A stretch of 64,000 bases of DNA, from positions 29,669 through 93,668 of the forward strand of contig JABMNL010000028.1 of NCBI GenBank assembly GCA_013204585.1, read 5' to 3'. Within the stretch, counting starts at the first letter, position 1. Each line of letters begins with the position of its first letter. This DNA comes from SAR202 cluster bacterium. Lineage in GTDB: Bacteria > Chloroflexota > Dehalococcoidia > Lucifugimonadales > UBA3495. Both the position numbers and the translations under genes were made by a program. The notes below the pieces were generated by a model. That model saw nothing but the letters and a program-made list of their open reading frames with translations, did not search any database and was not told the origin of the DNA. This document shows positions 16 to 42,324 of the stretch, piece by piece.

Positions 16-642
16 TTGATAATCGACCCAAACACATTTGAAGGATTCAACCGCGTGCTGACAGGAGTGATTGTGCCCCGCCCCATCGCGTTTGTCTCCA
101 CTGTATCCACCGACGGGGTGGTCAATCTGGCGCCCTACTCTTTCTTCAACGCCGTGTCCTATACCACCGTTGTCTTTTCTTCCTCACGCCATGTGGGGAA
201 GAAGAGTAAAGACACCCTGCGGAACGTGGAGGAGACCGGGGAATTCGTGGTTAACATTGTCGTCGACCCCATCGCCGAAGCCATGAATGCCACCGCTGCT
301 GAGTTCCCTGAGGACGTGGACGAGTTCGAGATTGCTGGCCTGACCCATGCGCCCTCCCAGATGGTTAAGGCGCCCAGGGTGGTTGAGTCTCCGGTGAACA
401 TTGAATGCAAGCTGGACCAGGTGGTGCAAATCGGTTCCGGCGACCACGAACACGGTTTGGTTATCGGCACCATCTTGTGTATGCACGTCCGCGACGACAT
501 CATCGACGGGCACCGTATCGACCAGGCCAAGCTAATGGCCACCGGTCGGATGGCAGGCAACATGTATTGCCGCACCAATGACCGGTACGAGATGGTGCGC
601 CCGGTCTACAACCCAGAAAAGAGCGTGACGGCCAACGGGTAA
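16..642 (+). CDS. Flavin reductase-like (FMN-binding split-barrel) protein
   Basis: 208-aa ORF. Motif PRPIAFVSTVSTDGVVNLAPYSFFN is typical of the flavin reductase domain family. GGAGG lies 8 nt upstream of the TTG start. A hairpin terminator follows. Confidence 0.75.
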   Translation: MIIDPNTFEGFNRVLTGVIVPRPIAFVSTVSTDGVVNLAPYSFFNAVSYTTVVFSSSRHVGKKSKDTLRNVEETGEFVVNIVVDPIAEAMNATAAEFPEDVDEFEIAGLTHAPSQMVKAPRVVESPVNIECKLDQVVQIGSGDHEHGLVIGTILCMHVRDDIIDGHRIDQAKLMATGRMAGNMYCRTNDRYEMVRPVYNPEKSVTANG

Positions 643-5956: not shown

Positions 5957-7144
5957 ATGATTAAGAATTTCGGTAGTTTGTACGCCGGACACGTTGACCT
6001 TGGAGACATCGGACTGGCAGGCACAGCCGTCAACGAACGCCGCTTCGACAATGACCACCTCATAACCATCTACGACCGCGTTGAGCAGATAGTCAAAGTG
6101 ATGGACGACCTTCGCTACCACAGCTTCTGGGCCGCCGAGCACCACTTCCAACACGAGGGCAACGAGACCATCCCGAATTTACTCTTGCTCTACGTGCATC
6201 TGGCCAATATCACCAAGAACTTAAAGTTCGGCTGCGGGTTCAACATCAACCCCATGTGGCACCCACTGCGATTGGCCGAAGACTACGCCACCGCCGACAT
6301 ACTGACCAACGGTCGAGTAATCTTCGGCGTGGGCCGTGGTTACCACTCGCGTGAGGTGGCCACTTTCGGCGTCCCCAGCACCGACATGGACAGCGACACC
6401 AACCGGGAGGTATTCGAAGAGCAGGTCGAAATCATGATGAAGGCCTTCAACCAGGTGTCCTTCTCCCATCACGGCAAGCATTACGACCTGCCACCCGAAG
6501 TCCCATACCGTGGCTATACGCTCAAAGAAATAACGCTGGTGCCACGGCCCAAACACCTGCCAGTGGAGACCTGGCAACCCATGGTCAGCGCTGGCCAGCG
6601 GGCCATGGACTTCATGGCCAAGCACGGCATCCAGGCGATTGTCGGCGGCGGAGCCGTCACCGGCGGCCCCAACGATGAGGTAATCAAGCGTTGGACCGAG
6701 ACCCTGGTCAACCACGGCCATACCGACGCCCAGTTGGGCAGTCGCCTGACAATTGGGCTGCCCACATTCATCGCCGATTCCGAGAAAGAGGCCATCGACC
6801 AGGCCAGGAAGTACTTCGAAGAGGACATGAAGATGTTCGGCCCCTTGGGCTTCTTCCGTGGGTTCACCCCGGAGATGCTCGACGCCTTGGGCGACCCCAA
6901 GCGGGCACCCACAACCTCTAGTCTGCCAACCTTCGAAGAAACCGTAGCCGCGGGCGCTTGGCTCTGCGGCACCGCCGAGCAAATCACAGAACGCATCATG
7001 GAGATTCAAGACAAGTTCCCCGGACTTGAGTACATGCACGTTGGCTGTGTCCGTCAGGGTACGCCTTTGAACGTGATGATTGAACAACTCGAGCGCTTCG
7101 GCAAAGAGGTCATGCCCAAGTTCAACGTGGCGAAACCTGGCTAG
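5957..7144 (+). CDS. LLM-class flavin-dependent oxidoreductase (luciferase-like monooxygenase)
   Basis: 395-aa ORF. Motifs FWAAEHHF, GRVIFGVGRGY and PRPKH are typical of the family. Confidence 0.8.
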   Translation: MIKNFGSLYAGHVDLGDIGLAGTAVNERRFDNDHLITIYDRVEQIVKVMDDLRYHSFWAAEHHFQHEGNETIPNLLLLYVHLANITKNLKFGCGFNINPMWHPLRLAEDYATADILTNGRVIFGVGRGYHSREVATFGVPSTDMDSDTNREVFEEQVEIMMKAFNQVSFSHHGKHYDLPPEVPYRGYTLKEITLVPRPKHLPVETWQPMVSAGQRAMDFMAKHGIQAIVGGGAVTGGPNDEVIKRWTETLVNHGHTDAQLGSRLTIGLPTFIADSEKEAIDQARKYFEEDMKMFGPLGFFRGFTPEMLDALGDPKRAPTTSSLPTFEETVAAGAWLCGTAEQITERIMEIQDKFPGLEYMHVGCVRQGTPLNVMIEQLERFGKEVMPKFNVAKPG

Positions 7145-11114: not shown

Positions 11115-11665
11115 TCCTAACGCTTGGGTTGATACTCCCGGCCTGACCGTCTTCTGCTACAACGTTCCTCTCCAATAATCCTCCAGTGCCCCAGAATGCC
11201 CCCTTCCCCAGTAGGCAAGAAATTTCAGTAACCCTTTCTTCCCAGCCTGCCTGTACAAAACCTTTTGTGTGAATTCCGTATGAATTTAACGCTTGATTAT
11301 GATAGCTGGTACGCACAAATGCGCGTATCAGCCTCAAAATGAGCAATCAACTCCGAATACCGTGATAGCTCACCAAATTTAGTGCCCATATCGGTATTGT
11401 TGCAATCGTGGCCATACGGGCACACGGGAGTATAATTTCAATACTAAAGCTCGTAGAATGACGGATGAATGACGGATTTGATGTTACGTTAACTAAATTC
11501 GCTAACAAGTTACGGGTTTCAAAAGCGGTATAGCGTCATGGTTTACATGTTACCGGCGTTATTACCCCATATATGTCCGCACGATGGATGGACGCAGCCG
11601 GATCTCATACCGGCGGCGTCGGACCTCACCCTGATTGCTGGATACGTAGATATATAAGAGGATCC

Positions 11666-13390
11666 ATGGTTAGTCGAGCAACCCCCTCATTTGAAGAAAG
11701 GGTGGGCCAAGTCCTATTAGAGGGCGGGTTCATCACACAAGAGCAGTTAGACGGCGCTAGAACGGCCAGCGAGGCAGAATCTTCCAGTCTTCTAGACGCC
11801 ATGGTTTCCCATGGCATGCTTGCCCAAGAAACCTTAGTAACTGTCCTCAGCTTCCAACTTCGCATCCCCGTTGTTGACCTCCGGCATGTTCAAGTTGACC
11901 CCGACGCAGTTGCCTTGGTACCGGAAGATTACGCCCGTGCGCACCGGGTAATGCCCACTGGATTCGATGCCGACGGCTCCCTTCGCATCGCCACCCGGAT
12001 GCCCAACGATTTCCAGCTATCCTCAGAGCTTTCATCCATTACAGGTCGCCAAACCAAGTTCGTTTTGGCCATCGGTGGAAAACTAGACGACCTGATTAAC
12101 CGGGTCTACAACTCGGCTCCGTCCGCGCCTGTAGCCGCGCCCCCTGGTAATAATGGCGGCGGCACTAGAACTATTTCTCCTGCGGCGGCCAAGGGCGAAG
12201 CCACCTTCTTGGGCCAGGACATTAGTACGTTACCCGCCATGCAAGCGGTGGACATGGTGACCTTGCAGGCAGTCAAAGCCAATGCTTCCGATATCCACAT
12301 GGTTCCCACCGCTGACTCGGCCAAGGTACTGTTCCGAATGGACGGCCAGCTACGACAAATGGTGGTACTGCCCCTAACCCTGCATGAAAGTATGGTTTCC
12401 AGAATCAAAGTCGAATCTGGAATGGACATCTCTGAAGACCGGCGTCCCCAGGACGGTGGATTCAGCTTGAAATTCGGCGAGCGCCGAGTGGAATTTCGTG
12501 TCGCTTCCATTGGGACCACCTGGGGCGAGATGATGGTAATTCGTGTTCTCGACCAGTCCGGCGGTCTCTTATCGCTTGAAGCATTGGGCATGGACCCCCA
12601 GAGCCTACAGGTATGGCGTTCCTTATTGGATTTGCCCTACGGTATGTTGCTGGTGTCTGGTCCTACCGGCTCAGGAAAGACCACCACCCTCTACGCCTCG
12701 GTTGCCGAACTAATCACATCCCGTGGCAACATCATGTCCGTCGAAGACCCCATTGAATACCGCATGGACGGGGTCAATCAGATCCAAGTAAACCGAGCGG
12801 CTGGAGTCGACTTCCCGGCGGGACTCAGGTCCATCATGCGCCTTGACCCCGACATTATCTTGGTCGGTGAGATACGGGACAAAGAAACAGCGACCACCGC
12901 CGTCAACGCCGCAATGACCGGCCACTTGGTTCTAGCTTCCATTCACAGCAACGATGCAGCATCATCCATCGTCCGCCTAATTGATTTAGGCGTGGAGCCA
13001 TTTCTGGCCGCTACCGGCGTTATTGGCTGCCTGGCCCAGCGCTTGGTACGCCAAGTATGCCCTCAGTGCAGCCAGCCTAAGGAAGCAACGGCAACCGAGG
13101 CGATTGCTTACGAGCAGGAGATGCAACAGCCAGTGCCACAGTTCATGTCCGGGCCGGGGTGCAATTTCTGCGGCGACTCTGGTTTCGTGGGGCGGAGCGG
13201 AGTGTTTGAAGTCCTCTCCGTAGACGAATCAATGCGGAGAAAGATTTCTCAGGGCTCCAGCGGCCCTGATATTCGTGAATCGGCGGTTAAGAGCGGAATG
13301 GTCACCATGCGCCGGGCCGGGATGCAAATGGCCCAAGCCGGAAAGACCACCCTGTCTGAAGTATTCCGTAGCGTCTTCTTCCTCGATTGA
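11666..13390 (+). CDS. pilB: Type IV pilus assembly ATPase (GspE/PilB family)
   Basis: Start chosen at ATG 11666 (AAGAGGA RBS). It has an N-terminal T2SSE_N-like domain, Walker A GPTGSGKTTT, Walker B DPDIILVGEIRD, His box GHLVLASIHSN and a tetracysteine CPQC...CNFC. Confidence 0.9.
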   Translation: MVSRATPSFEERVGQVLLEGGFITQEQLDGARTASEAESSSLLDAMVSHGMLAQETLVTVLSFQLRIPVVDLRHVQVDPDAVALVPEDYARAHRVMPTGFDADGSLRIATRMPNDFQLSSELSSITGRQTKFVLAIGGKLDDLINRVYNSAPSAPVAAPPGNNGGGTRTISPAAAKGEATFLGQDISTLPAMQAVDMVTLQAVKANASDIHMVPTADSAKVLFRMDGQLRQMVVLPLTLHESMVSRIKVESGMDISEDRRPQDGGFSLKFGERRVEFRVASIGTTWGEMMVIRVLDQSGGLLSLEALGMDPQSLQVWRSLLDLPYGMLLVSGPTGSGKTTTLYASVAELITSRGNIMSVEDPIEYRMDGVNQIQVNRAAGVDFPAGLRSIMRLDPDIILVGEIRDKETATTAVNAAMTGHLVLASIHSNDAASSIVRLIDLGVEPFLAATGVIGCLAQRLVRQVCPQCSQPKEATATEAIAYEQEMQQPVPQFMSGPGCNFCGDSGFVGRSGVFEVLSVDESMRRKISQGSSGPDIRESAVKSGMVTMRRAGMQMAQAGKTTLSEVFRSVFFLD

Positions 13391-13510
13391 TTGATGATAA
13401 AAACTCATCTGGGACATAGACTAGGCAGCGTGGCTGTCGTGCTGGCTTGACCACGGTGGGGATTGGGAAGACGATAGCCTTAAAGACACCAATAGCGCAG
13501 TTAGATTGCA

Positions 13511-14719
13511 ATGGTAGTTAGATACGTAGCATATACATGGCAAGGTGAAAAGGTTGAGGGCGTCTTGAACGTCGACCGGGAAGATGTAGCCCGGGAGATG
13601 CTTCAGAAAGACGACCTAATACCGTACGAAGTGGTACGAGTACGGCCAATCCCTTCTCTCTCACGTTTTGCTCCAATGCTGTTTCAACCTAAGCCCCAAG
13701 AAGTGATTGAATTCACCCGGGGTCTAGCGGCGTTGATTCGCTCCGGAATTCCCATACGCGAAGGACTGACCATTCTGCGAGGTCAGGGCGTTGGGTTGGG
13801 CATGAAAGAGATTGTGCGGCAGCTAATTGCTGCCATCGAGGACGGAAGCCGGTTGTCCGACGCCTGCGCTAGGCATCCTAGAGTGTTTTCCGGCTTCTAC
13901 ATAAGATTGTTGCGTGTGGGAGAAGCCACCGGAAGAATGCCCGAGTCGTTACAGCAACTTGCGGAAACCTTACTTAAGGGCAAGGCCATGCGGGACAAAG
14001 TTAAAGGCGCATTGGTCTACCCCGCCATCAGCATGGTTGTAGCCATTCTTGTCGCCGTTATTCTGTTGGTCTACTCTTTGCCCGCAATCGTTAACCTGCT
14101 TGCCGAGTTCGGCGGTGAACTGCCGTTGGCCACACGATTGTTAATTGAAGTTTCTGAATTCGTTCAGGCCTACAAGATGGTCATATTCATCGTATTAGCA
14201 ACCGTACTGGTCGGCAGTTGGCTGACTTCTAAGACTGTGCGTGGCCGCCGCGTAATGGACAGATATTTCCTAAAGTTTCCGATAATTGGCAGCGTGTTGA
14301 TGCAGAGTAACCTCTTCAACCTCACGTCCACTTTCGGAACATTACTACGTTCTGGTATCCCATCCATGGAAGCTCTAAGATTGTCAAAAGACAGCCTGGG
14401 AAATGTAATTCTGCGGGAACGGCTGGACGACATCATCAACGATGTGGAAGGTGGAACTCGATTGGGGTCTTCATTCCGCGAATATTGGCCTAGCCCACCT
14501 CTCCTCTCCCAAGGCATGATTACCGGCGAGGCAACCGGAAACTTGCCGGAAGCTCTCAACAACATGGCGGAATACTACGAGCAAGAAGCAACCAGGACTG
14601 TTAGTGGAGCTACCGAGTTGATTCAGCCGGCGGTCATCCTATTGGTCGCAGGACTGGTAGGTTTCGTGGCTATCGCCGTGGTGGGAGGAGTCTACTCCGC
14701 TCTTGATTCAATTGAATAA
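13511..14719 (+). CDS. pilC: Type IV pilus platform protein (GspF/PilC family)
   Basis: 402-aa ORF with two T2SSF-like repeats and three TM segments, immediately downstream of pilB. Confidence 0.85.
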   Translation: MVVRYVAYTWQGEKVEGVLNVDREDVAREMLQKDDLIPYEVVRVRPIPSLSRFAPMLFQPKPQEVIEFTRGLAALIRSGIPIREGLTILRGQGVGLGMKEIVRQLIAAIEDGSRLSDACARHPRVFSGFYIRLLRVGEATGRMPESLQQLAETLLKGKAMRDKVKGALVYPAISMVVAILVAVILLVYSLPAIVNLLAEFGGELPLATRLLIEVSEFVQAYKMVIFIVLATVLVGSWLTSKTVRGRRVMDRYFLKFPIIGSVLMQSNLFNLTSTFGTLLRSGIPSMEALRLSKDSLGNVILRERLDDIINDVEGGTRLGSSFREYWPSPPLLSQGMITGEATGNLPEALNNMAEYYEQEATRTVSGATELIQPAVILLVAGLVGFVAIAVVGGVYSALDSIE

Positions 14720-23908: not shown

Positions 23909-26900
23909 TTGAAAAAACTTTTCACATTAATCGCCAATAGCCAATCAGGTGCCATTCTCCCAATGGCAATTCTGTCGTCTCTAATTGGCATTTTGGTGAT
24001 TGTTCCGGTGGCGGTCACGGTTGCTACCACCGCCCGCAGCCAAGGCGACCTGTTGGACATAACCAACGAGGCCTATCTTGCTGAGGCGGGCGTCGCGGTA
24101 GTGATTGAAGACCTAATTCGCGGCGCCGATGGCGACCCACCCAACCCGTTCAATTACGTACCGCCGGTAGTAAACATCGGCGGCAAGGTACCCTACACAA
24201 CCGTCGAGTCTCTGAAAGACGATGCCGCACCAACCATAACCAGCCGACGGCTACTGAATTACGGCAAAGCTGGAGACCCCACAGTCACCGTAGGCACATT
24301 ATCCGTCGACCCAGATAAAGACGACCACTCGTACGATCATTCGTACGAAGGTGACGGTTACGGCTACGATGACGACTACGAAAAAAAGAAGTACCAATAC
24401 CCATTCGTCTTCGATGTGAAAGGTGGAGGCTTAGCGGACGGCACTGCAACTGCAGGTGTTCTTCCTGACGGTCTCTCGGATGTAGGCATCGGCTACAACG
24501 CCGACCCACAGAGGGTGGAATTTACCATTGTCAGCGAGATTGTGGCATTCGACCCGACCCTAACCGGCGAAGTCCAAATTGACCTCCAAGCATGGGAAGA
24601 ATCGGCTCAGCTAGAAGTTTACGTCTATGAATTAGATTCAGACGCGGACGACAAGGCCATCGGCAAATTACCGGACGAACCTGATGAGACCCGTGTTATT
24701 GACCACGACCACGACAAAAAGAAGTCGGACCATCTCCACGACGCCCTCCATGACGACCACTCTGAAAATGACGCTACAGAAGGGCACGTAGACCATTTTG
24801 GCGGCGACCACCACGGCCACGTAGCTGGCATCGGCGGCCCGCATCCCCATTTGACCCATAATGACCATCACTACGGCCAGGTGGTCGGTGACGACGATGA
24901 CGATGCGCATCATAGTCACCACGGGTATCACGAATATGAAGACGACGACCTTCTTCACCACCACGCGGCGACCGGCGATATTCTGTTGTTACATGAAGAA
25001 GACCATCCTCACCACAAAGGGCATGGCCATAAGCACCACAAGCACGAGGGAGACCATTACCATCACGGGTCAACGGACGTAACCGTTACCCTGAGCGAGG
25101 GCGCTCTGGAGTACCTCAATCAAAATAAGTACGTAAAGATTAAGGTCGTGGCCACGGTCTACTCAGACCCAGAGCATCATCACCTTGCCCACACAAATGA
25201 TGATAGCCAGGTCGAAATCAAAGGCAACAGTTTCAAGCACGACCACTATCACCATTGGCTTCGAAAAGACCGGCCAAACTTTGAACTCCATGTGGGAGGG
25301 GTCAACTTTGCGTTGGTCGGTCCGGTAACGGTCGATACTCGGTTCATGGCCGGACCCATTGTTTTGAACCGTGGCTCTCTAGTGTCCGGCGGCCCCGTCG
25401 ATACGAAAGAAGACGATTTGTCGTATTACATATTCGAAAGCGACGACGAAAGGGTCGAATTCGAGTTGACCAGTAATAAATTCGACCTGAAAAATCTAGA
25501 CACCCTCGTAGTGCCGTTCATTGTTCGGACCCACCAAATCAACTTGCCCGGTGGCGATAAATACCCCCATGAGCATGACCATGATTATGATGGAAAACAT
25601 GACGACGACGGTCACGACCACAAAGACGATCACAAAGACGTAGAAGTAGAAATTAGGGTGTACAACCCCAATGATCCCAAGGCCGACAAATATGACGGCT
25701 TCAGCAAGATTGACCGGTTCAAGCAGAAGATTGAGGCGAGTTACGTAGACCGATACATGGCCTTCGAGATTGGCCAAGACGGCATTGACTACGTCAACAG
25801 CTTGGCAGACAAACAAGTCCGGGTGCGGTTCACATTCAAAGGCTCTAAAGAATTCCGGGTTGAACTCGACCGGCTAACGTTCTTTGCGACATCCACCGAG
25901 TCACGGAATACTCTGCTGGCTGAAGCATCGCACCAATATATTGACCCTGCGACCAGCGATGATAATTTCAAGGTTGTACCGGCGGGAAGCAGCTATGTCC
26001 TCCAATTGAACAACGTCCGTTCCGGGCTGATGAGCGTCAACTGGGCGTTCCTGCCGTTGCCCATAACTGGCGCAAAGCATAAAGACAAGCATAACGAAAT
26101 ATCAATCAAGGTCTTCCGTGGCACGGTACTAGACCACGGTGATGTAATTCCGGCTGGCCGATATTTCGGTGACCCCAAAGACAAAGACGGCAACGACCTA
26201 GTCGAAAAAGCCCATATCCACCCTGGGCACGGCGAGACCTTCGTAAGGACGGGTTTGTTTGAGGTCCAACCCGGAATTTACACCATTGTGTTCGCCAACG
26301 ACGTGGACGACCACGACTACTATGATAATGACGACGATGACCGCGACGGCAAATATAAGGGTCCTCCGCCGTCGGTGTACACCAAAAAATTCTCAGACAG
26401 CGGCAGGACCGATAGCACATGGGTATTTGGTTCCTCTTACCGAGACTACCTAATCCAGAGCAAGTTCGGTCAGGTCGCTGTGAAAACGGTGGTTCGCCAG
26501 GTGCCAGGCCCCATCGCAGCTCTGCCATGGACGCCAGAAAAGGCTTCTCTATCACCACATCAGGTGTTCGTCCAGTCATGGCATGAACCGGTTGGCATAG
26601 CAGAAATAATTGTCGACAAGGATAGCGACTACATCTGGGACACGATTGACGGCGCGTGGGAAATAGATGCGTTCGAAAAAGGTACGTTCGTTGACGAAAG
26701 CGACATAACTTCGAAACGGTTCACCGACCAGCACCGCAAGGGCACTACCTACGGACAGGTTGTGGAGTCGGGAGGCCTAATCGTCAACGTTGTCGACGTC
26801 AATTCCGACGACCTGGGAGTCCTTATTACAGTAACCGGCCGGGGCACAAACCAGGCCACATTGAGCGTCTGTGGAAGCACTGTGTATTTGACCAACGGCG

Positions 26901-28366
26901 ACGCGCTGATAGCCACCTGCGGATCCACTGAAGTCGATGTCCATAGTGGACCAATCGAGATTGTGTTGGCTGGCGATATCGTCGCAACGATTCCAACCGA
27001 CGGTGCAATCAAAGTAACCAAAGTCGACAGTAAAAAAGTCAATGTGAAGAACACCGACGATGACGAATTAATCGTAATTACTAGCAAAAAAGGAACAGTT
27101 GAGTTATTGGCGGGCACAGAAGTAATTGTGGTTGACGGCGAGGAATTGCCTTCCCCGACGGCCACTCCGATTGGCACGGCCACGCCGGTTCCGACACCTA
27201 CTCCAACAACTACGCCGTTCCCTACTGCTACACCAATTGCGGCGGCGGACACAGCAACTCCGGTGCCTGGTTCTACGGCTACGCCAGTTCCGGCTACCGC
27301 AACCCCGGTGCCACCGACGGCTACACCAGTTCCCGGTACGGCTACACCAGTTCCGGCTACGGCTACACCAGTTCCGGCTACGGCTACACCGGTTCCGGCT
27401 ACGGCCACACCAGTTCCGGCTACGGCCACGCCAGTTCCGGCTACGGCCACGCCAGTTCCGGCTACGGCCACGCCAGTTCCGGCTACAGCCACGCCAGTTC
27501 CGGCTACGGCTACGCCAGTTCCGGCTACGGCTACGGCGACCCCGACACCGTCGCCAAGCAGTTCGCTGGACTCGTCAAGTTGGACCTCGTTGGACCACAC
27601 GCCTAGCAATGTTACGGGTGGTGGCGCCCTAACCACCGATGGCACGAACATATTTGCGCTGAGGGGAGACGGTAAAGACGATTTCTGGCGTTACAGCGTA
27701 GCCAACGACTCGTGGAGTTCTCTAGCTAATACGCCGAGCAACGTTGATTCAGGCAGCGCCATGACCTACGCTGGCGGGTATATCTACACCCTACGGGGAG
27801 ACGGTAAAAACGATTTCTGGCGCTACAACATAAGCGCCAATTCCTGGCAGAACTTGGACGACGCCCCTGAAACAGTGGACTGGGGCGGCTCCCTAACCTA
27901 TGACGGATCGAACACAATCTATGCGTTCCGCGGCACGGGCACCAATGACTTCTGGAGTTACTCCATCTCCGCCGGAACGTGGAGCACGAAAGCAAACGCA
28001 CCGGCAAGTGTCAAAGCTGGAGGCGCACTTCTGTACGACAACGGGTTTGTCTACGCCCTACGTGGCGACAATAACCAGAACTTCTGGCGGTACACGGTAT
28101 CCAGCAATAGCTGGACATCAATGGCATCAACACCGTCAGACATCTACCAGGGAGGCTCGTTGGCCTACTTTGGCGATGGCTCAATCTACGTCTTACGTGG
28201 AGACCGTCAGGATGATTTCTGGCGTTACAGCATCAGTAGCAATAGTTTCACCACCCTATCGAACACTCCTGGCAATATCGACGACGGTGGTAGCATGATT
28301 GCCGTAAACGGCGCTCTGTACGCCCTTAGAGGCGACAACAAGAATGACTTCTACGGCCTTGAATAG
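23909..28366 (+). CDS. Giant pilus-associated protein: PilX-like N-terminal anchor, His/Asp-rich tracts, Pro/Thr repeat linker, C-terminal six-bladed Kelch-like propeller
   Basis: 1485-aa ORF with TTG start, the only start in the open frame from 23885. The N-terminal hydrophobic segment is SGAILPMAILSSLIGILVIVPVAV. H/D-rich tracts lie at 24701-25069, 25562-25640 and 26300-26360. There are about 12 ATPVPAT repeats and six ~45-aa repeats with GG...IY.LRGD...DFWRY...W. Confidence 0.8.
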   Translation: MKKLFTLIANSQSGAILPMAILSSLIGILVIVPVAVTVATTARSQGDLLDITNEAYLAEAGVAVVIEDLIRGADGDPPNPFNYVPPVVNIGGKVPYTTVESLKDDAAPTITSRRLLNYGKAGDPTVTVGTLSVDPDKDDHSYDHSYEGDGYGYDDDYEKKKYQYPFVFDVKGGGLADGTATAGVLPDGLSDVGIGYNADPQRVEFTIVSEIVAFDPTLTGEVQIDLQAWEESAQLEVYVYELDSDADDKAIGKLPDEPDETRVIDHDHDKKKSDHLHDALHDDHSENDATEGHVDHFGGDHHGHVAGIGGPHPHLTHNDHHYGQVVGDDDDDAHHSHHGYHEYEDDDLLHHHAATGDILLLHEEDHPHHKGHGHKHHKHEGDHYHHGSTDVTVTLSEGALEYLNQNKYVKIKVVATVYSDPEHHHLAHTNDDSQVEIKGNSFKHDHYHHWLRKDRPNFELHVGGVNFALVGPVTVDTRFMAGPIVLNRGSLVSGGPVDTKEDDLSYYIFESDDERVEFELTSNKFDLKNLDTLVVPFIVRTHQINLPGGDKYPHEHDHDYDGKHDDDGHDHKDDHKDVEVEIRVYNPNDPKADKYDGFSKIDRFKQKIEASYVDRYMAFEIGQDGIDYVNSLADKQVRVRFTFKGSKEFRVELDRLTFFATSTESRNTLLAEASHQYIDPATSDDNFKVVPAGSSYVLQLNNVRSGLMSVNWAFLPLPITGAKHKDKHNEISIKVFRGTVLDHGDVIPAGRYFGDPKDKDGNDLVEKAHIHPGHGETFVRTGLFEVQPGIYTIVFANDVDDHDYYDNDDDDRDGKYKGPPPSVYTKKFSDSGRTDSTWVFGSSYRDYLIQSKFGQVAVKTVVRQVPGPIAALPWTPEKASLSPHQVFVQSWHEPVGIAEIIVDKDSDYIWDTIDGAWEIDAFEKGTFVDESDITSKRFTDQHRKGTTYGQVVESGGLIVNVVDVNSDDLGVLITVTGRGTNQATLSVCGSTVYLTNGDALIATCGSTEVDVHSGPIEIVLAGDIVATIPTDGAIKVTKVDSKKVNVKNTDDDELIVITSKKGTVELLAGTEVIVVDGEELPSPTATPIGTATPVPTPTPTTTPFPTATPIAAADTATPVPGSTATPVPATATPVPPTATPVPGTATPVPATATPVPATATPVPATATPVPATATPVPATATPVPATATPVPATATPVPATATPVPATATATPTPSPSSSLDSSSWTSLDHTPSNVTGGGALTTDGTNIFALRGDGKDDFWRYSVANDSWSSLANTPSNVDSGSAMTYAGGYIYTLRGDGKNDFWRYNISANSWQNLDDAPETVDWGGSLTYDGSNTIYAFRGTGTNDFWSYSISAGTWSTKANAPASVKAGGALLYDNGFVYALRGDNNQNFWRYTVSSNSWTSMASTPSDIYQGGSLAYFGDGSIYVLRGDRQDDFWRYSISSNSFTTLSNTPGNIDDGGSMIAVNGALYALRGDNKNDFYGLE
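27270..27545 (+). repeat. Tandem 21-bp repeat array (ACGGCYACRCCAGTTCCGGCT) inside the giant gene
   Basis: About a dozen near-identical in-frame units encoding (T)ATPVPA. Units differ only at one or two synonymous or third positions. Confidence 0.9.
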
Positions 28367-32800: not shown

Positions 32801-33943
32801 TTAGCCGAACAATTCGATGGATTCCATAACCTTTTCATGGGGTATGGTCTCCGTCTGCATGATCAGCATAACTTGGTCGACACCGATGTCTTCGTAGGTC
32901 TTGATGGTCTTGATACAGCTCTCGGGACTGCCAGCGATGATGACACCCCGGTCGGCTAGAACGTTGGCGTCCAACTCGGCCACGGCTGCACGGGCAGCGC
33001 TGGGACCCGAGTCTAGCGAGATACCCGCTTCCGCCGCTTGGGCTTTGTGCTCGTCGTCTGACTGACGCAACCAGCGGCCAAAGTCGGCCTTCAAGTTGTC
33101 GGGCACTCCGCCCCAGGCCTCCAAAAGCTCTTCATAGGCATTAATGCGGCCTTGAATGTAAGGCTTGTCCGGCCCGAAGAAGGCCTTCATGGAGTCCGCG
33201 CACAATTCCTTGGCGGCCTGGTCGTCCTTGCCGCAAAAAGAGTGGACGTTATTACCCCAGAACTCGTTAATTTCCGCGCCCACCGGGTCGGCGTCTTTAA
33301 TGGCGTCGCGGTAGACCTTGACGTGCTCTTTGAGGATGTCCACAGCGTACGAGGCTGACGACAGTACTCCGATACCTTTCTGAGCGGCCAAGCGGAAGCT
33401 CTCGGTCTGGGTGCAGGCCAAATACATTCGCGGGTGGGGCTTCTGGAAGGGCCTAGGCAGCACCTGCCGCTCAGGTACGTTCCAGAACTTGCCTTCCCAG
33501 GAAAATTTGTCGGACTGCCATATCTGGGGAAGCATGGACAGCGCTTCTTCCCAGCGGTCTCTGGTCTCCCGGGGGTCGATGCCCTGTCCGGTCTGCTCGT
33601 AGGCGTTGGACCGCCCGGTGCCAACCTCCACGCGACCATTGCTAAGTTGGTCAATCATTGCCACCCGTTCCGCCACGTGAATGGGGTGGTGAGCGGGCAA
33701 AATAGACACGCCAAATCCAAGGCGTATCTGTTTGGTTCGCTGGGTCAGGGCACCCAAAAAGACTTCAGAACAAGGCGATCCGGAGAAGCCCATCAAGAAA
33801 TGGTGCTCCACGAACCAGAGGTTGTTAAAGCCAACTTGGTCGGCCAATTCGCACTGGTCGAGGGTCTCGCGGTACAAGGCATTCCAATCTACTTCTACGC
33901 CGTCGAAGGGCCGTTGCATCTCAAACAAAAGTCCGAATTTCAT
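32801..33943 (-). CDS. LLM-class flavin-dependent oxidoreductase
   Basis: 380-aa ORF starting MKFGLLFEMQ..., with FNNLWFVEHHF and GRVEVGTGR motifs. Confidence 0.8.
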   Translation of the reverse strand: MKFGLLFEMQRPFDGVEVDWNALYRETLDQCELADQVGFNNLWFVEHHFLMGFSGSPCSEVFLGALTQRTKQIRLGFGVSILPAHHPIHVAERVAMIDQLSNGRVEVGTGRSNAYEQTGQGIDPRETRDRWEEALSMLPQIWQSDKFSWEGKFWNVPERQVLPRPFQKPHPRMYLACTQTESFRLAAQKGIGVLSSASYAVDILKEHVKVYRDAIKDADPVGAEINEFWGNNVHSFCGKDDQAAKELCADSMKAFFGPDKPYIQGRINAYEELLEAWGGVPDNLKADFGRWLRQSDDEHKAQAAEAGISLDSGPSAARAAVAELDANVLADRGVIIAGSPESCIKTIKTYEDIGVDQVMLIMQTETIPHEKVMESIELFG

Positions 33944-34154
33944 GTATTCGCTCCTTCAATATTGGTTTCAGGGGTTCGTAATCGCCAGGCTGCCTGGTCG
34001 AAATTACGGGGAGTATACCGCATTAGTCCGCCTGCGGGGACGGGCCGTTCCGCGGGCCGTTTCAATGAAAGTTGACGGCGGCTAGCCAACCCTGGATACT
34101 GGGCGTGATTTGAGGCCGTTGCCTCTAACATTTAATGACTAAATGGAGGGCAAA

Positions 34155-35021
34155 ATGCGACTAGGAGCAATCTTCCCCCAAACCGAGATCGGCGCAGACC
34201 CCGCCGCCGTTAAGGACTTCGCCCAAGCCGCCGAGGACCTGGGCTACGACCACTTATTGGTCTTCGACCACGTCTTGGGCGCAGACGCCAGCAAACGGGA
34301 AAAATGGGAACGACCTTACAGCAGCGTCGACACGTTCCACGAGCCTTTCGTCATGTTCGGCTACCTGGGTGCCGTGACCGAGAAGCTAGAGTTCACCACC
34401 GGTGTGCTGATTCTTGGACAACGCCAGACCGCACTGGTGGCCAAGCAGGCGGCCGAGGTCGACATACTAACCGGTGGCCGCCTACGTCTGGGCATCGGCA
34501 TCGGCTGGAACGATGTTGAGTACGAGGCTTTGGGCCAGAGCTTCACTAACCGGGGCCGCCGCAGCGAAGAACAGATAGAACTGCTCCGACTGCTCTGGAC
34601 GCAAGAAGTGGTGGACTTCCACGGCAAGTACCACAACATCACCAATGCGGGCATTAACCCTCTGCCGGTACAGCGACCAATACCCATCTGGCTGGGTGGC
34701 GGAGATGACCGGGTAATCGAGCGAATCGGCAAGATAGCCGACGGCTGGTTCCCCCAGTTCCAGCCCGATAGCGCCGGACAAGAACGCCTCCACCAGATGC
34801 GGGAACACGCAGTGAAAGCAGGCCGCGACCCCAAGGCCATCGGAATTGAAGGCCGTATCTCCTATGCTGCCGACAAACAAGAAGACTGGGAGAAAATGGC
34901 CGCCGCCTGGGACGAAGTAGACGCCACGCACCTGTCCATCAACACCATGAAAGCCGGACTCAAAGGCCCAGACCAACACATTGAGGCCATCAAACGCTTC
35001 AAGGAAACCGTCTCGGACTAG
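34155..35021 (+). CDS. LLM-class F420-dependent oxidoreductase
   Basis: Start at ATG 34155 (GGAGGG RBS). Motifs MRLGAIFPQTEIG, YDHLLVFDHV and RLGIGIGW. Confidence 0.8.
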   Translation: MRLGAIFPQTEIGADPAAVKDFAQAAEDLGYDHLLVFDHVLGADASKREKWERPYSSVDTFHEPFVMFGYLGAVTEKLEFTTGVLILGQRQTALVAKQAAEVDILTGGRLRLGIGIGWNDVEYEALGQSFTNRGRRSEEQIELLRLLWTQEVVDFHGKYHNITNAGINPLPVQRPIPIWLGGGDDRVIERIGKIADGWFPQFQPDSAGQERLHQMREHAVKAGRDPKAIGIEGRISYAADKQEDWEKMAAAWDEVDATHLSINTMKAGLKGPDQHIEAIKRFKETVSD

Positions 35022-39503: not shown

Positions 39504-40293
39504 CGTGTTTCTTAAGACCCTACGTGACCAACGAAACTCCCTGATGTGGTGGGTGGCTGGGATTGCTGCGTTGGCCATTTTCACCATGCTCTTCTACCCC
39601 AGCATCGCCGACTCTACGGAATTCGACCAAATGCTGGAAGACTTGCCCGAGGCATTATCCCGAGCGATGCTGGGCGATGTCACCAGTCTCACATCGCCGG
39701 AAGGGTATCTAAACAGTCAGCTCTTCGTGTTCATGATTCCCATGCTGTTCTTAGTCTTTACCGTAAACCGGGGCAGTGGGGCCATTGCTGCGGAGGAAGA
39801 ACGCGGCACGCTGGAACTGCTGCTGTCGTATCCCCTGCGACGGTGGCGGTTGGTCGCAGATAAGTTCCTAGCCATGTGCGTGGCCACCCTGGTAATTACG
39901 ATTGCCACCTGGCTTTCATTGCTCGGGGGAGCGGTGATAGTAGACATGGAGATTGGGGCGGGGAGACTCGCCGAGGCGACGCTCAGCGCGGCGATGCTTG
40001 GCCTGGTTTTCGGCGCATTCTCCCTGGCCTTGGGCAGCGCCACGGGCAAACGGACGTTGAGCGTCGGCATTACTGCTGGCTTGGCGGTGGCGGCGTATCT
40101 GCTTAACGCATTTGCTCCGCTGGCCGACTGGCTTGAGCCCGCTAGGTGGTTTTCGCCGTTCTACTATTACAGTGGCGGCGACCCGCTCAGCAACGGGTTA
40201 GACTTGGTGCATGTGGGAGTGATGGCTGGACTGGTTGCGGCGTTTGTCGTTGTGGCAATGCTTACATTTGAACGCCGGGACGTTGGCGTCTAA
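39493..40293 (+). CDS. ABC-2 family transporter permease
   Basis: 266-aa polytopic ORF overlapping the ATPase stop. N-terminus MLRNVFLKTLRDQRNSLMWW is typical of ABC-2 permeases. Confidence 0.75.
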   Translation: MLRNVFLKTLRDQRNSLMWWVAGIAALAIFTMLFYPSIADSTEFDQMLEDLPEALSRAMLGDVTSLTSPEGYLNSQLFVFMIPMLFLVFTVNRGSGAIAAEEERGTLELLLSYPLRRWRLVADKFLAMCVATLVITIATWLSLLGGAVIVDMEIGAGRLAEATLSAAMLGLVFGAFSLALGSATGKRTLSVGITAGLAVAAYLLNAFAPLADWLEPARWFSPFYYYSGGDPLSNGLDLVHVGVMAGLVAAFVVVAMLTFERRDVGV

Positions 40294-40330
40294 TTTAGGT
40301 GAACGCCGGGACGTTGGCGTCTAATTTAGG
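40269..40330. repeat. Perfect 31-bp tandem duplication spanning the permease stop codon
   Basis: TGAACGCCGGGACGTTGGCGTCTAATTTAGG occurs twice back to back. Confidence 0.9.
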
Positions 40331-40345
40331 ACCTCTCCACAAAGC

Positions 40346-41290
40346 CTAGAGACCGGCAGACATCCCTCCGTGACGTTCAGCAAGGATGCGGCTGTAGTCT
40401 TCTCTGCGCCAGCGATAGGGCATGGTGCGTATTTCTCCCGGCTCACGGCACGAACTGAGCATGGTGAGCGCGTCTTCCAACACAACCCGTTGTTGGTCCG
40501 GGTTCCCTGGCGCTCCAAATGGGCGACCAAAGGGAAACCGCAGCACCAGCCCACGAGGAACAGACATGGTCTCAGCCTTGGTGCGGTCCACCATGACCAC
40601 CACCGTGGGGATACCAGCCGATTCTATGGCCCGTGCTATCAGTCCGCCGGACTGATGACAGAGGGGTCAAGTTGTGCCAATGACCACTCCATCCACACCG
40701 TCTTCCTTCAGCCGTCCGGCCACCTCCGGCCCCGTTACTTCCATCAACTTCGACGGATCGGGTATATAGCCCATAAAGCTGTACGTCGGCGTCTGAGCCT
40801 CTCCCACCATGCCCTCGGCCACCATGTCCTGCAGGCGGTGGATGGCTAAGACCGCGTCCACGTCTCCGGCAACTCCGTTGGTGTCATAGTGGGTGTGGGC
40901 CACCCGCAACTGGTCTAAAGGAGTGTCCAAAGGAATCTCACGGTAGCTCCAGTCGCCATCAGTGTTAAATGGCTCCTGACCCTCAACGTAGACGCCGCCG
41001 GTGGACATGACCGCAATTTTGGACTCGGACAATCTTTTCTTGAATGGTGCCCAAGGGGCTTCGTCGAAACCCATGGGTAGGGCCAGACGCGCCGACAGTT
41101 TGTCTTCTTGCTCCTCTAGGAACTGGTCAACTAAAGGCCAGTTTCCAGACTCTCGCGCCTCTGCGCTCACATGAAACAGGCGATTGAAAAACTGGGTAAC
41201 CTCTTCGTCCTGCATCCTGCTTAGGTACTTCAACCGGGAGAAGGGTGTTGTCTCCGGGTTTTTAATCAGGTCTGCTTTTTCGATTGCCAT
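40346..41290 (-). CDS. GrdB/PrdB-superfamily reductase-like selenoprotein (in-frame TGA = Sec, UxxC motif)
   Basis: ORFs 40667..41290 and 40346..40603 are in the same frame, separated only by TGA at 40669..40667. The read-through sequence is ...VVIGTT-U-PLCHQSGGLIARAIESAGIPTVVV...RFPFGRPFGAPGNPD. A SECIS-like hairpin starts 10 nt after the TGA. Confidence 0.65.
40638..40656 (-). promoter_or_regulatory. Candidate bacterial SECIS hairpin
   Basis: The mRNA reads UGA-CCCCUCUGUC-AUCAGUCC-GGC-GGACUGAU. It has a perfect 8-bp stem with G-rich apical loop, and the loop lies 18 nt from the UGA. Confidence 0.55.
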
Positions 41291-41550
41291 GTTCCATCCC
41301 CCTTTAGTAACGACTGGGCGTTAGCGAGTTTGATGTGCCACCCAGCCGGAAAGATGCATTACACTAAGCGCAGTGTCAAGGATACAAAAAATCGATTCTT
41401 CAGGTCTGCCGGTGGATTCAACTTTAGAGTATAATCAGCGCGGAGCGTGGCCACGGCGTAATTTCACGCCCGCACCACTCTCGCGTATCGCCGGCATCGA
41501 ATTACGATCTTCCATCAACTAAACCGGCAACTAAACAGGAACTAGGTTGA

Positions 41551-42324
41551 ATGAGTAAATTTATTGACCGTCTGGACGAGATAATTGAAGGTGCCCCAGC
41601 CAGCATGGGCTTTGGGCCAGCTAGGTCCGAGAAGCCCCCAGGGCTGGCGCTGATAGTCCAGGTTTCCAGCAGCCATAAAACAGGTACTGCCACCGCCACC
41701 GGAGTTTCCCCCGACGGAATCATCATCTCTGGGGTAAAAAGCCCTGCCGAAGTCACCGCGTTGAAAGACTCCCTCTCCGACTCGATATGGGGAGTCCGGA
41801 CCGATTCCCTTAGCTCCGAGGATGCCAAGGCTTATCTGGAGGACGGCTGCGATTTGTTGGCGTTCCAGCTTAAAGGCACCTCTATTGGGGCAGTATCGTC
41901 CGAGGACTCCACCAGGGTTTTGTGCATTGACTCCAACTCCGACGTTGAAGACCTCAGGGACATCAACGCCCTTCCCGTGGATGCCGTGTTATTTCCCCTC
42001 AGTGGGGCATCATCATCTTGGACGCTGGACGACCTGGCCAAGGTAGCCCGTATCCGCGGACGCCTGGGCAAGTATCTCCTGGCCGAAATTTCTGAATCGC
42101 CCAACGCCGACGAATTAAAGGTATTGCGCACCGCCGGTATTAACGGGTTGGTGCTGGACGTTTCCGCTGGCAAGGAAGCCCTGGAATCGCTGAAGAAATT
42201 GCTCATGGACATGCCCAAGCCCGGACCAAAACGTGCTGGCAAGTCCACCGCCATCCTACCCGGCGCTTCCTTCTCCCCCCAAAGCGAGGAACCGGCGGAA
42301 GAGCCCGACGAGGACGACGAGTAA
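41551..42324 (+). CDS. Hypothetical protein with acidic C-terminal tail
   Basis: 257-aa ORF, no family recognised, upstream of and co-directional with the M50 peptidase gene. Confidence 0.4.
   Translation: MSKFIDRLDEIIEGAPASMGFGPARSEKPPGLALIVQVSSSHKTGTATATGVSPDGIIISGVKSPAEVTALKDSLSDSIWGVRTDSLSSEDAKAYLEDGCDLLAFQLKGTSIGAVSSEDSTRVLCIDSNSDVEDLRDINALPVDAVLFPLSGASSSWTLDDLAKVARIRGRLGKYLLAEISESPNADELKVLRTAGINGLVLDVSAGKEALESLKKLLMDMPKPGPKRAGKSTAILPGASFSPQSEEPAEEPDEDDE

What the first reader, a model, noticed from the sequence alone, without database searches (positions are those of the whole stretch)
40346..41290. Selenoprotein: in-frame TGA with UxxC motif and SECIS-like hairpin in a GrdB/PrdB-family gene
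Seen in sequence:
- Two minus-strand ORFs are in the same reading frame, with first bases 41290 and 40603 exactly 687 nt apart. They are separated only by TGA at 40669..40667.
- Read-through gives ...DGVDGVVIGTT-U-PLCHQSGGLIARAIESAGIPTVVVMVDR...RFPFGRPFGAPGNPD.
- Ten nucleotides after the TGA is a perfect 8-bp hairpin AUCAGUCC-GGC-GGACUGAU with a G-rich apical loop.

Established knowledge: the glycine/sarcosine/betaine/D-proline reductase B family (PF07355) contains Sec in a redox-active U/C-x-x-C context. Bacterial SECIS elements are hairpins whose apical loop lies roughly 16-37 nt from the UGA.

Automated callers would split or truncate this gene. The protein is much shorter than canonical GrdB and no grdA/grdC/prdA partners are adjacent, so its substrate is unknown.
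Basis: partly seen in the sequence, partly recalled or inferred. Interest (0 to 1): 0.75.

Follow-up and report, generated by a model that had tools for sequence, protein, structure and literature searches.

The report
Split selenoprotein gene, PrdB-like, SAR202
This is one real 314-residue selenoprotein gene, whose in-frame TGA encodes selenocysteine, from a marine SAR202/Dehalococcoidia bacterium; the family has been known from ocean metagenomes since 2005, databases routinely split the gene in two, and its substrate is still unknown.

Summary
One minus-strand frame runs from ATG 41290 to TAG 40346 and is interrupted only by TGA 40669-40667. A perfect 8-bp hairpin starts 10 nt after the TGA.

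The selenoprotein reading is strongly supported:
- 38 of 40 related genome loci (33-85% identity) keep TGA at this codon, with conserved in-frame coding after it.
- Public databases hold the gene as 207-aa N-terminal fragments and 64-117-aa C-terminal "hypothetical proteins".
- Synonymous-site variation is lowest in the whole gene at the hairpin stem codons, while the loop codon varies freely.
- Two distant loci carry compensatory stem changes.
- A homologue with Ser at this position has lost the hairpin.

The protein is PrdB-like: Pfam GRDB passes, but the NCBIfam PrdB equivalog scores 186 bits against a cutoff of 300. It has an extra ~75-residue N-terminal helical region. No prdA, grdA or prdC partner lies within 10 kb in the neighbour genes examined, and no neighbour is conserved across clades.

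"Proline reductase PrdB (UxxC)" is already one of the most abundant marine selenoprotein families, so this is a new member of a known kind. Sec machinery could not be checked in this genome, and the substrate remains unknown.

The parts
40346..41290 (-). Complete selenoprotein coding sequence: 314 codons plus TAG stop, with Sec at codon 208.
   Evidence: A single frame has one internal TGA. The same architecture is found in 38 related loci.
41297..41304 (-). Shine-Dalgarno-like AAGGGGGA, 6 nt upstream of ATG 41290-41288.
   Evidence: Read directly from the sequence. No consensus promoter was found in 40100-41700.
41063..41290 (-). N-terminal extension, residues 1-76. It has a conserved NPETTPFSRLKYL motif followed by a predicted helical hairpin, and lies outside the PrdB profile match.
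   Evidence: The NCBIfam PrdB match starts at residue 77. Conserved columns are listed in A1. The AF2 model of homologue P0113 has helices at 27-47 and 50-68. The shorter homologues L037-L040 lack this region.
40403..41062 (-). PrdB-like core, residues 77-296.
   Evidence: TIGR04483 scores 185.9 bits over profile positions 17-236 of 238. PF07355 matches residues 33-207.
40667..40669 (-). UGA codon 208, read as selenocysteine.
   Evidence: TGA is at the aligned codon in 38 of 40 loci. One locus has Ser and one is frameshifted. Database homologues have Cys, Ser or Glu here.
40658..40660 (-). Cys211 codon (UGU), the presumed resolving cysteine of the U-P-L-C motif.
   Evidence: Cys is at this codon in all 38 TGA-bearing loci and in the Ser locus L036, read directly from the translations (U-P-[VILR]-C, or U-Y-I-C in L040). 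Among database homologues, the Ser variants also keep it (P0113, P0226, P0232-4), as does P0228 in a CPQVC motif. P0230 and P0231 have Ser here and P0229 has Asp.
40635..40659 (-). SECIS-like hairpin. The 8-bp perfect stem is 40656-40649 paired with 40645-40638. The GGC loop is 40648-40646. Two outer pairs lie beyond a C.A mismatch.
   Evidence: The fold is shown. The hairpin is conserved in all TGA-bearing loci and absent in the Ser locus L036. Synonymous entropy is lowest here for the whole gene. 97.5% of cells are paired and 2 pairs are compensatory, against 0.2 in shuffles.

Best explanation
Positions 41290-40346 (minus strand) hold one gene for a 314-residue cytoplasmic selenoprotein of the GrdB/PrdB superfamily, in a SAR202/Dehalococcoidia (Chloroflexota) genome.

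Recoding. UGA208 is recoded to selenocysteine. A hairpin 10 nt downstream acts as the bacterial SECIS that recruits SelB with Sec-tRNA(Sec) to the ribosome. The hairpin has an 8-bp stem, a three-base loop that always starts with G, and its loop begins 18 nt after the UGA. This step is inferred from conservation; it has not been shown biochemically.

Active site. Sec208 and Cys211 form a U-x-x-C pair. In an AlphaFold model of a 42%-identical homologue, the pair sits at the junction of a beta-strand and the N-terminus of a helix. By analogy with PrdB and GrdB, the selenolate is the nucleophile or reductant. It is regenerated through a selenenylsulfide with Cys211, which is then reduced by a thiol system.

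Relation to D-proline reductase. The protein is not a canonical D-proline reductase subunit:
- it scores below the PrdB equivalog threshold;
- it carries an extra conserved ~75-residue N-terminal region;
- it is monocistronic;
- no conserved neighbour and no PrdA, GrdE, GrdA or PrdC was found in the neighbour genes examined across 40 loci.

It most likely works as a stand-alone selenol/thiol reductase, or with a partner encoded elsewhere, on a substrate not yet identified.
For: Shown here:
- One frame with a single TGA.
- TGA conserved in 38 of 40 genome loci at 33-85% protein identity (tblastn best segments). The in-frame downstream sequence U-P-x-C-[HNQ]-Q-S-[GV]-G-L-[IVLM]-A/Q-R is also conserved.
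- The 21 codons between the TGA and the first possible restart (GTG 40603) are conserved as protein while still varying synonymously, for example codons 218-226.
- Databases contain the two halves only as separate fragments.
- The hairpin is present in every TGA-bearing locus and destroyed in the Ser-containing locus L036.
- Stem codons TCC, GGA and CTG are invariant in 31 of 31 loci, although only 4-6% of comparable 4- and 6-fold codons are invariant. The loop Gly codon varies freely. Normalised synonymous entropy is 0.24-0.28 at codons 207-217 against about 0.6 gene-wide.
- Stem pairing is 97.5%, with U-A to C-G (L033) and G-C to A-U (L040) double changes. Shuffles give 0.2.
- Family assignment comes from PF07355 and TIGR04483.
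- Cys stands at the Sec position in P0228, P0230 and P0231.
- TGA is an ordinary stop in 4 of 28 other genes in the window, so the code is not reassigned.
- No partner genes are adjacent.
- The AF2 model has pLDDT 88 with the motif at a strand-helix junction.

From the literature:
- PrdB-type UxxC selenoproteins are abundant in marine metagenomes (PMC1088965, PMC2398784).
- Dehalococcoidia MAGs rank among the most selenoprotein-rich genomes (PMC13326102).
- SelA and SelB co-occurred in the majority of sponge-symbiont bins of various phyla, in a dataset that included SAR202 (PMC5649159).
Against: - No tRNA-Sec, selA, selB or selD was found in the window or in about 0.7 Mb of related loci. This is uninformative rather than negative, but the machinery is unverified for this genome.
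- There is no direct evidence of selenium incorporation.
- The hairpin stem overlaps codons of a conserved peptide (HQSGGL), so part of its conservation is protein-driven.
- Only two compensatory events were seen.
- The local folding energy is unremarkable (z = -0.85).
- No Rfam model matches.
- Ser (five clusters) and Glu (one cluster) occur at the Sec position in some homologues. The fold can therefore exist without a redox-active residue there.
- The catalytic cycle and the stand-alone status are inferred by analogy and from synteny only. A PrdA/GrdE-like partner elsewhere in the genome is not excluded.
Confidence: 0.9

Rival explanations
1. It is a genuine D-proline reductase PrdB subunit, or another Stickland-type reductase B subunit. 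Its pyruvoyl partner (PrdA/GrdE) and electron-transfer partners are simply encoded elsewhere in the genome.
For: The best family match is the PrdB equivalog, over nearly the whole profile (E = 8e-55). The UxxC motif is the same. Earlier metagenome surveys filed such genes under 'proline reductase PrdB' (PMC1088965, PMC2398784).
Against: - The score of 186 bits is far below the equivalog cutoff of 300. All orphan relatives score 115-191 bits.
- There is an extra conserved 75-residue N-terminus.
- No prdA, prdC, prdD, prdE or prdF was found in the neighbour genes examined within 6-10 kb across 40 loci, and no neighbour is conserved across clades.
- From general knowledge, prd genes are operonic in Clostridia and SAR202 are aerobic marine heterotrophs.
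Confidence: 0.1
2. The TGA is a true stop. The locus holds a 207-residue protein followed by either a separate small gene or a decaying remnant, that is, a split gene or pseudogene.
For: This is how every automated annotation in the databases treats it. One related locus, L034, really is frameshifted.
Against: - A nonsense mutation would not be kept at the identical codon in 38 loci that have diverged to 33% identity.
- The 21 codons before the first possible restart are under protein-level purifying selection.
- No start codon or ribosome-binding site follows the TGA.
- Full-length homologues with Cys or Ser at the same position are single polypeptides.
Confidence: 0.03
3. The UGA is read through by a mechanism that does not insert selenocysteine. 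Examples are near-cognate Trp or Cys insertion stimulated by the hairpin, or a reassigned genetic code.
For: The Sec machinery was not observed. Downstream hairpins can stimulate read-through in general.
Against: - The codon aligns with the catalytic Sec/Cys position of the GrdB/PrdB family UxxC motif.
- TGA terminates 4 of 28 other well-supported genes in the window.
- The class Dehalococcoidia includes selenoprotein-rich genomes (PMC13326102).
Confidence: 0.04

Closest known systems
Marine 'Proline reductase PrdB' selenoprotein family of the Sargasso Sea and GOS selenoproteome surveys (Zhang, Fomenko & Gladyshev 2005; Zhang & Gladyshev 2008)
   Same: It has a pfam07355 domain, a UxxC Sec motif and a SECIS hairpin with G in a small apical loop. 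The origin is marine metagenomic. Sec forms far outnumber Cys forms: 42 Sec to 1 Cys in the Sargasso Sea and 235 to 110 in GOS (PMC1088965, PMC2398784).
   Different: Those surveys did not assign the sequences to SAR202. They did not separate orphan PrdB-like proteins from true PrdB, and they did not describe the N-terminal extension. I could not align the window protein directly to their sequences.
D-proline reductase selenoprotein PrdB (NCBIfam TIGR04483; Clostridium sticklandii, Clostridioides difficile)
   Same: Homology runs over essentially the whole PrdB profile (positions 17-236 of 238). Sec is in a U-x-x-C motif. The presumed selenolate/thiol chemistry is the same (PMC13188914).
   Different: The score is 186 bits against a cutoff of 300. 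About 75 extra N-terminal residues are present. No prdA, prdC, prdD, prdE or prdF neighbours were found. The hosts are marine Chloroflexota rather than Stickland fermenters.
Glycine/sarcosine/betaine reductase protein B selenoproteins GrdB, GrdF and GrdH (Pfam PF07355; TIGR01917, NF040794, NF040795)
   Same: It passes the Pfam GRDB gathering threshold. It aligns to the C-terminal half of GrdB, including the Sec position.
   Different: It is 314 aa, against about 431-436. It scores 46-52 bits against cutoffs of 602-800. No grdA, grdE, grdC or grdD is nearby.
Bacterial SECIS elements (E. coli fdhF type and the bacterial SECIS consensus)
   Same: A hairpin lies inside the coding sequence just 3' of the UGA. 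It has a small apical loop beginning with G, and the loop starts 18 nt after the UGA.
   Different: The loop is only 3 nt (GGY, GGA, GUG or GUA), and no bulged U was identified. Binding to SelB is untested. No Rfam model matches.

Membership tests
Bacterial selenoprotein gene (UGA recoded to Sec) | In-frame UGA with protein-coding conservation on both sides | tested here: met
   38 of 40 loci have TGA at the aligned codon with conserved downstream frame. Synonymous variation with a conserved protein is seen after the TGA.
Bacterial selenoprotein gene (UGA recoded to Sec) | SECIS hairpin a short distance 3' of the UGA, with G in a small apical loop | tested here: met
   The 8+2-bp hairpin has its loop 18 nt after the UGA, and the first loop base is G in all 39 sequences. 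Pairing is 97.5% with 2 compensatory pairs. Stem codons are invariant while the loop codon is free. The hairpin is lost in the Ser locus. bSECISearch itself was not available.
Bacterial selenoprotein gene (UGA recoded to Sec) | Cys at the aligned position in non-Sec homologues | tested here: met
   Cys is found in P0228, P0230 and P0231. However, Ser is found in P0113, P0226 and P0232-4, and Glu in P0229.
Bacterial selenoprotein gene (UGA recoded to Sec) | selA, selB, selD and tRNA-Sec present in the same genome | not testable with these tools
   None was found in the 64-kb window or in 40 related loci. The only support is from the literature, for the class Dehalococcoidia and for sponge-symbiont bins (PMC13326102, PMC5649159).
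Bacterial selenoprotein gene (UGA recoded to Sec) | Selenium physically incorporated at the UGA position | not testable with these tools
   This needs 75Se labelling or mass spectrometry.
Pfam PF07355 GRDB (glycine/sarcosine/betaine reductase selenoprotein B superfamily) | Score at or above the Pfam gathering threshold | tested here: met
   37.4 bits against 22, E = 2.5e-9, residues 33-207.
D-proline reductase PrdB (NCBIfam TIGR04483 equivalog) | Score at or above the curated equivalog cutoff of 300 bits | tested here: not met
   185.9 bits. Relatives score 115-191 bits.
D-proline reductase PrdB (NCBIfam TIGR04483 equivalog) | Encoded next to prdA (pyruvoyl proprotein) within a prd operon | tested here: not met
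   The window neighbours are an ABC-2 transporter, an unknown 257-aa protein, an M50 peptidase and an amidohydrolase. No PrdA-like gene was found among the conserved neighbour clusters or the individually scanned neighbours in 40 loci. Not every ORF in the flanks was scanned.
D-proline reductase PrdB (NCBIfam TIGR04483 equivalog) | U-x-x-C redox motif | tested here: met
   U208-P-L-C211. The UxxC motif is listed for PrdB in PMC13188914 and PMC2398784.
Glycine reductase GrdB / sarcosine GrdF / betaine GrdH | Score at or above the curated cutoffs (602-800 bits), length ~431-436 aa, and grdA/grdE/grdC/grdD context | tested here: not met
   Scores are 46-52 bits and the protein is 314 aa. No grd genes are nearby.
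Marine 'Proline reductase PrdB' selenoprotein family (GOS and Sargasso surveys) | pfam07355 domain plus a UxxC Sec motif, as tabulated in the surveys | tested here: met
   against Table 2 of PMC2398784. No direct alignment to the survey sequences was made.

The most novel reading that the evidence does not exclude
The orphan PrdB-like proteins of SAR202 and other Chloroflexota may form a functionally distinct selenoenzyme family rather than D-proline reductase subunits. They would have their own conserved N-terminal NPETTPFSRLKYL/helical module. That module is conserved in sequence but predicted with low confidence, so it might be a docking segment. They would use Sec almost obligately and would lack a pyruvoyl partner. 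If so, one of the most abundant selenoprotein families in the ocean catalyses an unknown reaction, such as a reductive cleavage acting on a dissolved-organic-matter compound or a dedicated thiol/selenol redox role, and has been mis-filed for two decades.
Probability: 0.45. Interest if true: 0.55.

Novelty: new member of a known kind. Interest (0 to 1): 0.3.

Why it matters
- Annotation. This gene is split or truncated in essentially every public record found here: more than 110 clusters of 207-aa fragments and about 100 C-terminal 'hypothetical proteins'. SAR202 proteomes and metaproteomic search databases therefore miss the active-site peptide.
- Biology. It places a Sec-dependent enzyme in SAR202, an abundant deep-ocean lineage. 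It also shows that the marine 'PrdB' selenoproteins are orphan, sub-threshold relatives of proline reductase. They have no adjacent partner and no relative of solved structure, so their name probably overstates what is known about their function.
- Limits. None of this changes the known principles of Sec decoding.

Tried and rejected
- Rfam gathering and permissive searches found no SECIS family match.
- The folding z-score of the 71-nt region is not significant on its own.
- A PDB sequence search found no relative. A Foldseek search of the PDB with a confident model found no match at E <= 0.001, and the best TM-score was 0.25. Structure therefore gave no functional lead.
- tblastn with E. coli SelA, SelB and SelD against the window plus 40 loci gave no hits. 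ARAGORN found no tRNA-Sec in the window or loci.
- A motif scan for other in-frame-TGA selenoprotein candidates in the window returned 59 raw hits. None except this gene had a long ORF on both sides with a clean hairpin, and they were not followed up by homology.
- Alignment A3 misaligned the fragments and was discarded in favour of A4.
- The idea that the 579-aa gene upstream in the second SAR202 clade, or the 603-aa gene upstream in L038, might be PrdA was tested and rejected. They are a Na+/H+ exchanger and an Elp3-type radical SAM enzyme.

Full report
**1. Observation**

- A 207-codon ORF starts at ATG 41290, with AAGGGGGA 6 nt upstream, and ends in TGA at 40669-40667.
- The same frame then runs a further 106 sense codons to TAG at 40348-40346.
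- The read-through product is 314 aa with the sequence ...VVIGTT-U-PLC-HQSGGLIARAIESAGIPTVVVMVDR...
- The ORF that callers list after the TGA starts at GTG 40603, which is 22 codons after the TGA.
- The hairpin AUCAGUCC-GGC-GGACUGAU lies at 40656-40638, exactly 10 nt after the TGA. Two further pairs extend it to 40659-40635.
- Perfect 8-bp hairpins with 3-8 nt loops occur at only about 11 sites in the 64-kb window. The juxtaposition with this TGA is therefore roughly a 0.3% coincidence.
- The folding energy of the surrounding 71 nt is not unusual (z = -0.85).

**2. Is the TGA a conserved sense codon?**

A search of 5.8 billion proteins with the read-through product (Sec replaced by Cys) listed 120 hits.
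- Almost all are exactly 207 aa, that is, truncated at this codon.
- They come from SAR202, Dehalococcoidia and Chloroflexota MAGs, at 50-96% identity.
- Where named, they are called 'GrdB family protein', 'PrdB' or 'hypothetical'.

A search with the C-terminal part returned about 100 clusters of 64-117 aa 'hypothetical proteins' and no full-length Cys form.

A scan of 185,579 species genomes gave 40 loci. Translating them shows:
- TGA at the aligned codon in 38 loci, followed in frame by U-P-[VILR]-C-[HNQ]-Q-S-G-G-L-[IVLM]-A-R... (L040 reads U-Y-I-C-H-Q-S-V-G-L-I-Q-R);
- the remaining conserved C-terminal motifs (PRxxxxRFPFGRPFGxPG, QQRVVLEDAL, PYRWRREDY);
- one locus (L036) with Ser (TCG) at this position;
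- one locus (L034) that is frameshifted.

The most distant TGA-bearing loci (L037-L039 from Anaerolineae and other Chloroflexota, and L040 from Tissierellaceae) are only 33-45% identical.

**3. The hairpin**

The stem-loop is present in every TGA-bearing locus. It is abolished in the Ser locus L036.

The stem overlaps codons for a conserved peptide (H-Q-S-G-G-L-I), so I measured synonymous-codon entropy across 31 ungapped SAR202 sequences.
- Gene-wide, 4- and 6-fold codons at conserved residues have mean entropy 1.2-1.4 bits, and only 4-6% are invariant.
- In the stem, Ser214 is TCC in 31 of 31, Gly216 is GGA in 31 of 31 and Leu217 is CTG in 31 of 31. His212 is CAT in 29 of 30 and Gln213 is CAG in 30 of 31.
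- The loop codon Gly215 varies freely (GGC 17, GGT 12, GGA 2).
- The 7-codon sliding mean of normalised entropy reaches the minimum for the whole gene (0.24-0.28, against about 0.6) at codons 207-217.
- Codons just beyond the stem (218-226) vary synonymously while the protein is conserved. This shows both an RNA-level constraint on the stem and protein-level selection downstream of the TGA.

On a 39-sequence alignment, the 10-pair structure is 97.5% paired. It has two double-sided changes: U-A to C-G in L033 and G-C to A-U in L040. Shuffles give 0.2, and slid registers give 13-43% pairing.

The first loop base is G in all sequences, and the loop begins 18 nt after the UGA. [quoted passage not shown] No Rfam family matches.

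**4. What the protein is**

- Pfam GRDB (PF07355) matches residues 33-207 above the gathering score.
- The best NCBIfam match is the PrdB equivalog TIGR04483: E = 8e-55, residues 77-296, profile positions 17-236 of 238. At 185.9 bits it falls below the 300-bit cutoff.
- GrdB, GrdF and GrdH models score about 50 bits against cutoffs of 600-800.
- The protein is therefore PrdB-like, with an additional ~75-residue N-terminus. That N-terminus is itself conserved within SAR202 (NPETTPFSRLKYL...). It is absent from the shorter relatives L037-L040.
- All relatives tested, whether Sec, Cys or Ser forms, score 115-191 bits. None is a canonical PrdB.
- Non-Sec homologues have Cys (P0228, P0230, P0231), Ser (P0113, P0226, P0232-4) or Glu (P0229) at the Sec position.

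An AlphaFold2 model of the full-length Ser homologue P0113 (42% identical) is confident, with pLDDT 88 and pTM 0.86.
- It shows an alpha/beta core.
- The motif sits between strand 203-207 and helix 211-226.
- A helical hairpin (27-68) lies in the N-terminal extension.
- The first ~20 residues are predicted with low confidence.

Neither a sequence search nor a fold search finds a solved relative.

**5. Context**

- The window gene is monocistronic. Upstream and divergent lies a 257-aa protein without a Pfam match, followed by an M50 peptidase, an unknown protein and an amidohydrolase. Downstream and convergent lies an ABC-2 transporter pair.
- Synteny holds only among close relatives.
- A second SAR202 clade has a Na+/H+ exchanger upstream and DUF1800, DUF1501 and NHL-repeat genes downstream.
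- The distant loci sit next to Elp3, a dihydroorotate-dehydrogenase-like gene, a biotin carboxylase or a peroxiredoxin.
- Among the conserved neighbour clusters and the neighbours scanned individually, no PrdA, GrdE, GrdA, PrdC or thioredoxin-reductase gene appears, and no neighbour is conserved across clades.

**6. Sec machinery**

The window has only tRNA-Pro and tRNA-Gln. The 40 loci have no tRNA-Sec. tblastn with E. coli SelA, SelB and SelD finds nothing in the window or the loci.

This covers only about 0.7 Mb of many different genomes, so it is uninformative. TGA terminates 4 of 28 well-supported genes in the window, so the genetic code is not reassigned.

From the literature:
- Two Dehalococcoidia MAGs are listed with 46 and 49 selenoproteins in BSepDB (PMC13326102).

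**7. Comparison with what is known**

'Proline reductase PrdB' with a UxxC motif and a pfam07355 domain was the third most abundant selenoprotein family in the Sargasso Sea, with 42 Sec genes and 1 Cys homologue (PMC1088965). It was among the most abundant in GOS, with 235 Sec and 110 Cys (PMC2398784).

The kind of element is therefore already known. What this analysis adds:
- an assignment to SAR202;
- the distinction between these orphan proteins and true PrdB;
- the N-terminal module;
- the synonymous-site signature of the SECIS;
- the Ser variants that have lost the hairpin;
- the observation that public annotation systematically splits the gene.

I found no paper linking SAR202 to this selenoprotein.

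**8. Verdict**

This is a real selenoprotein gene, with confidence about 0.9. It is a new member of a known family. The mechanism of Sec insertion is inferred from strong comparative evidence. The enzymatic function remains unknown and is probably not D-proline reduction.

Noticed in passing
window 40269-40330: A perfect 31-bp tandem duplication (2.0 copies, unit TGAACGCCGGGACGTTGGCGTCTAATTTAGG). Each copy contains a short ACGCC/GGCGT inverted repeat. It lies 16 nt past the selenoprotein stop codon and overlaps the last codons of the convergent ABC-2 permease ORF, which ends at 40293. It may be a duplicated bidirectional terminator or a small repeat element.
   Followed up: partly
window 40670-40672 (codon 207) and the aligned codon in L001-L035: The Thr codon immediately 5' of the Sec UGA is ACU in 31 of 31 SAR202 sequences, although it is a four-fold degenerate site. 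This suggests a constraint on the context upstream of the UGA.
   Followed up: no
L036 10001-10996; proteins P0113, P0226, P0232-P0234, P0229: Some full-length homologues have Ser (TCG in L036) or Glu at the Sec position instead of Cys, and L036 has lost the hairpin. Ser replacing Sec is unusual and suggests either loss or change of the redox function in these lineages.
   Followed up: partly
L034 10001-10820: One related Dehalococcoidia MAG carries a frameshifted copy of the gene. This is either a pseudogene or an assembly error.
   Followed up: no
L040 2609-4520: In a Tissierellaceae MAG, the distant Sec-containing PrdB-like gene (G-U-Y-I-C) lies directly downstream of a peroxiredoxin gene. 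This hints at a thiol/peroxide redox context rather than Stickland metabolism.
   Followed up: partly
window, 28 Pfam-supported genes: Stop-codon usage is TAA 15, TAG 9 and TGA 4 at 54.6% GC. TGA seems under-used for this GC content.
   Followed up: no
window 16-642, 1363-2202, 5957-7144, 32801-33943, 34143-35021: There are four luciferase-like flavin monooxygenase paralogues plus a flavin reductase in 64 kb. From general knowledge, this fits the expanded monooxygenase repertoire reported for SAR202.
   Followed up: no
window 41551-42324 (+): A 257-aa protein without any Pfam match is transcribed divergently from the selenoprotein gene. It keeps this position in 12 related loci of the closest clade, but not in the second SAR202 clade.
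   Followed up: partly
window 23909-28366 (+): A 1485-aa ORF has only C-terminal Kelch repeats recognised; the rest is unannotated.
   Followed up: no
window 11573-14719 (+): Type II/IV secretion ATPase (T2SSE with an MshEN domain) and platform protein (T2SSF) genes, which suggest a pilus or secretion locus.
   Followed up: no
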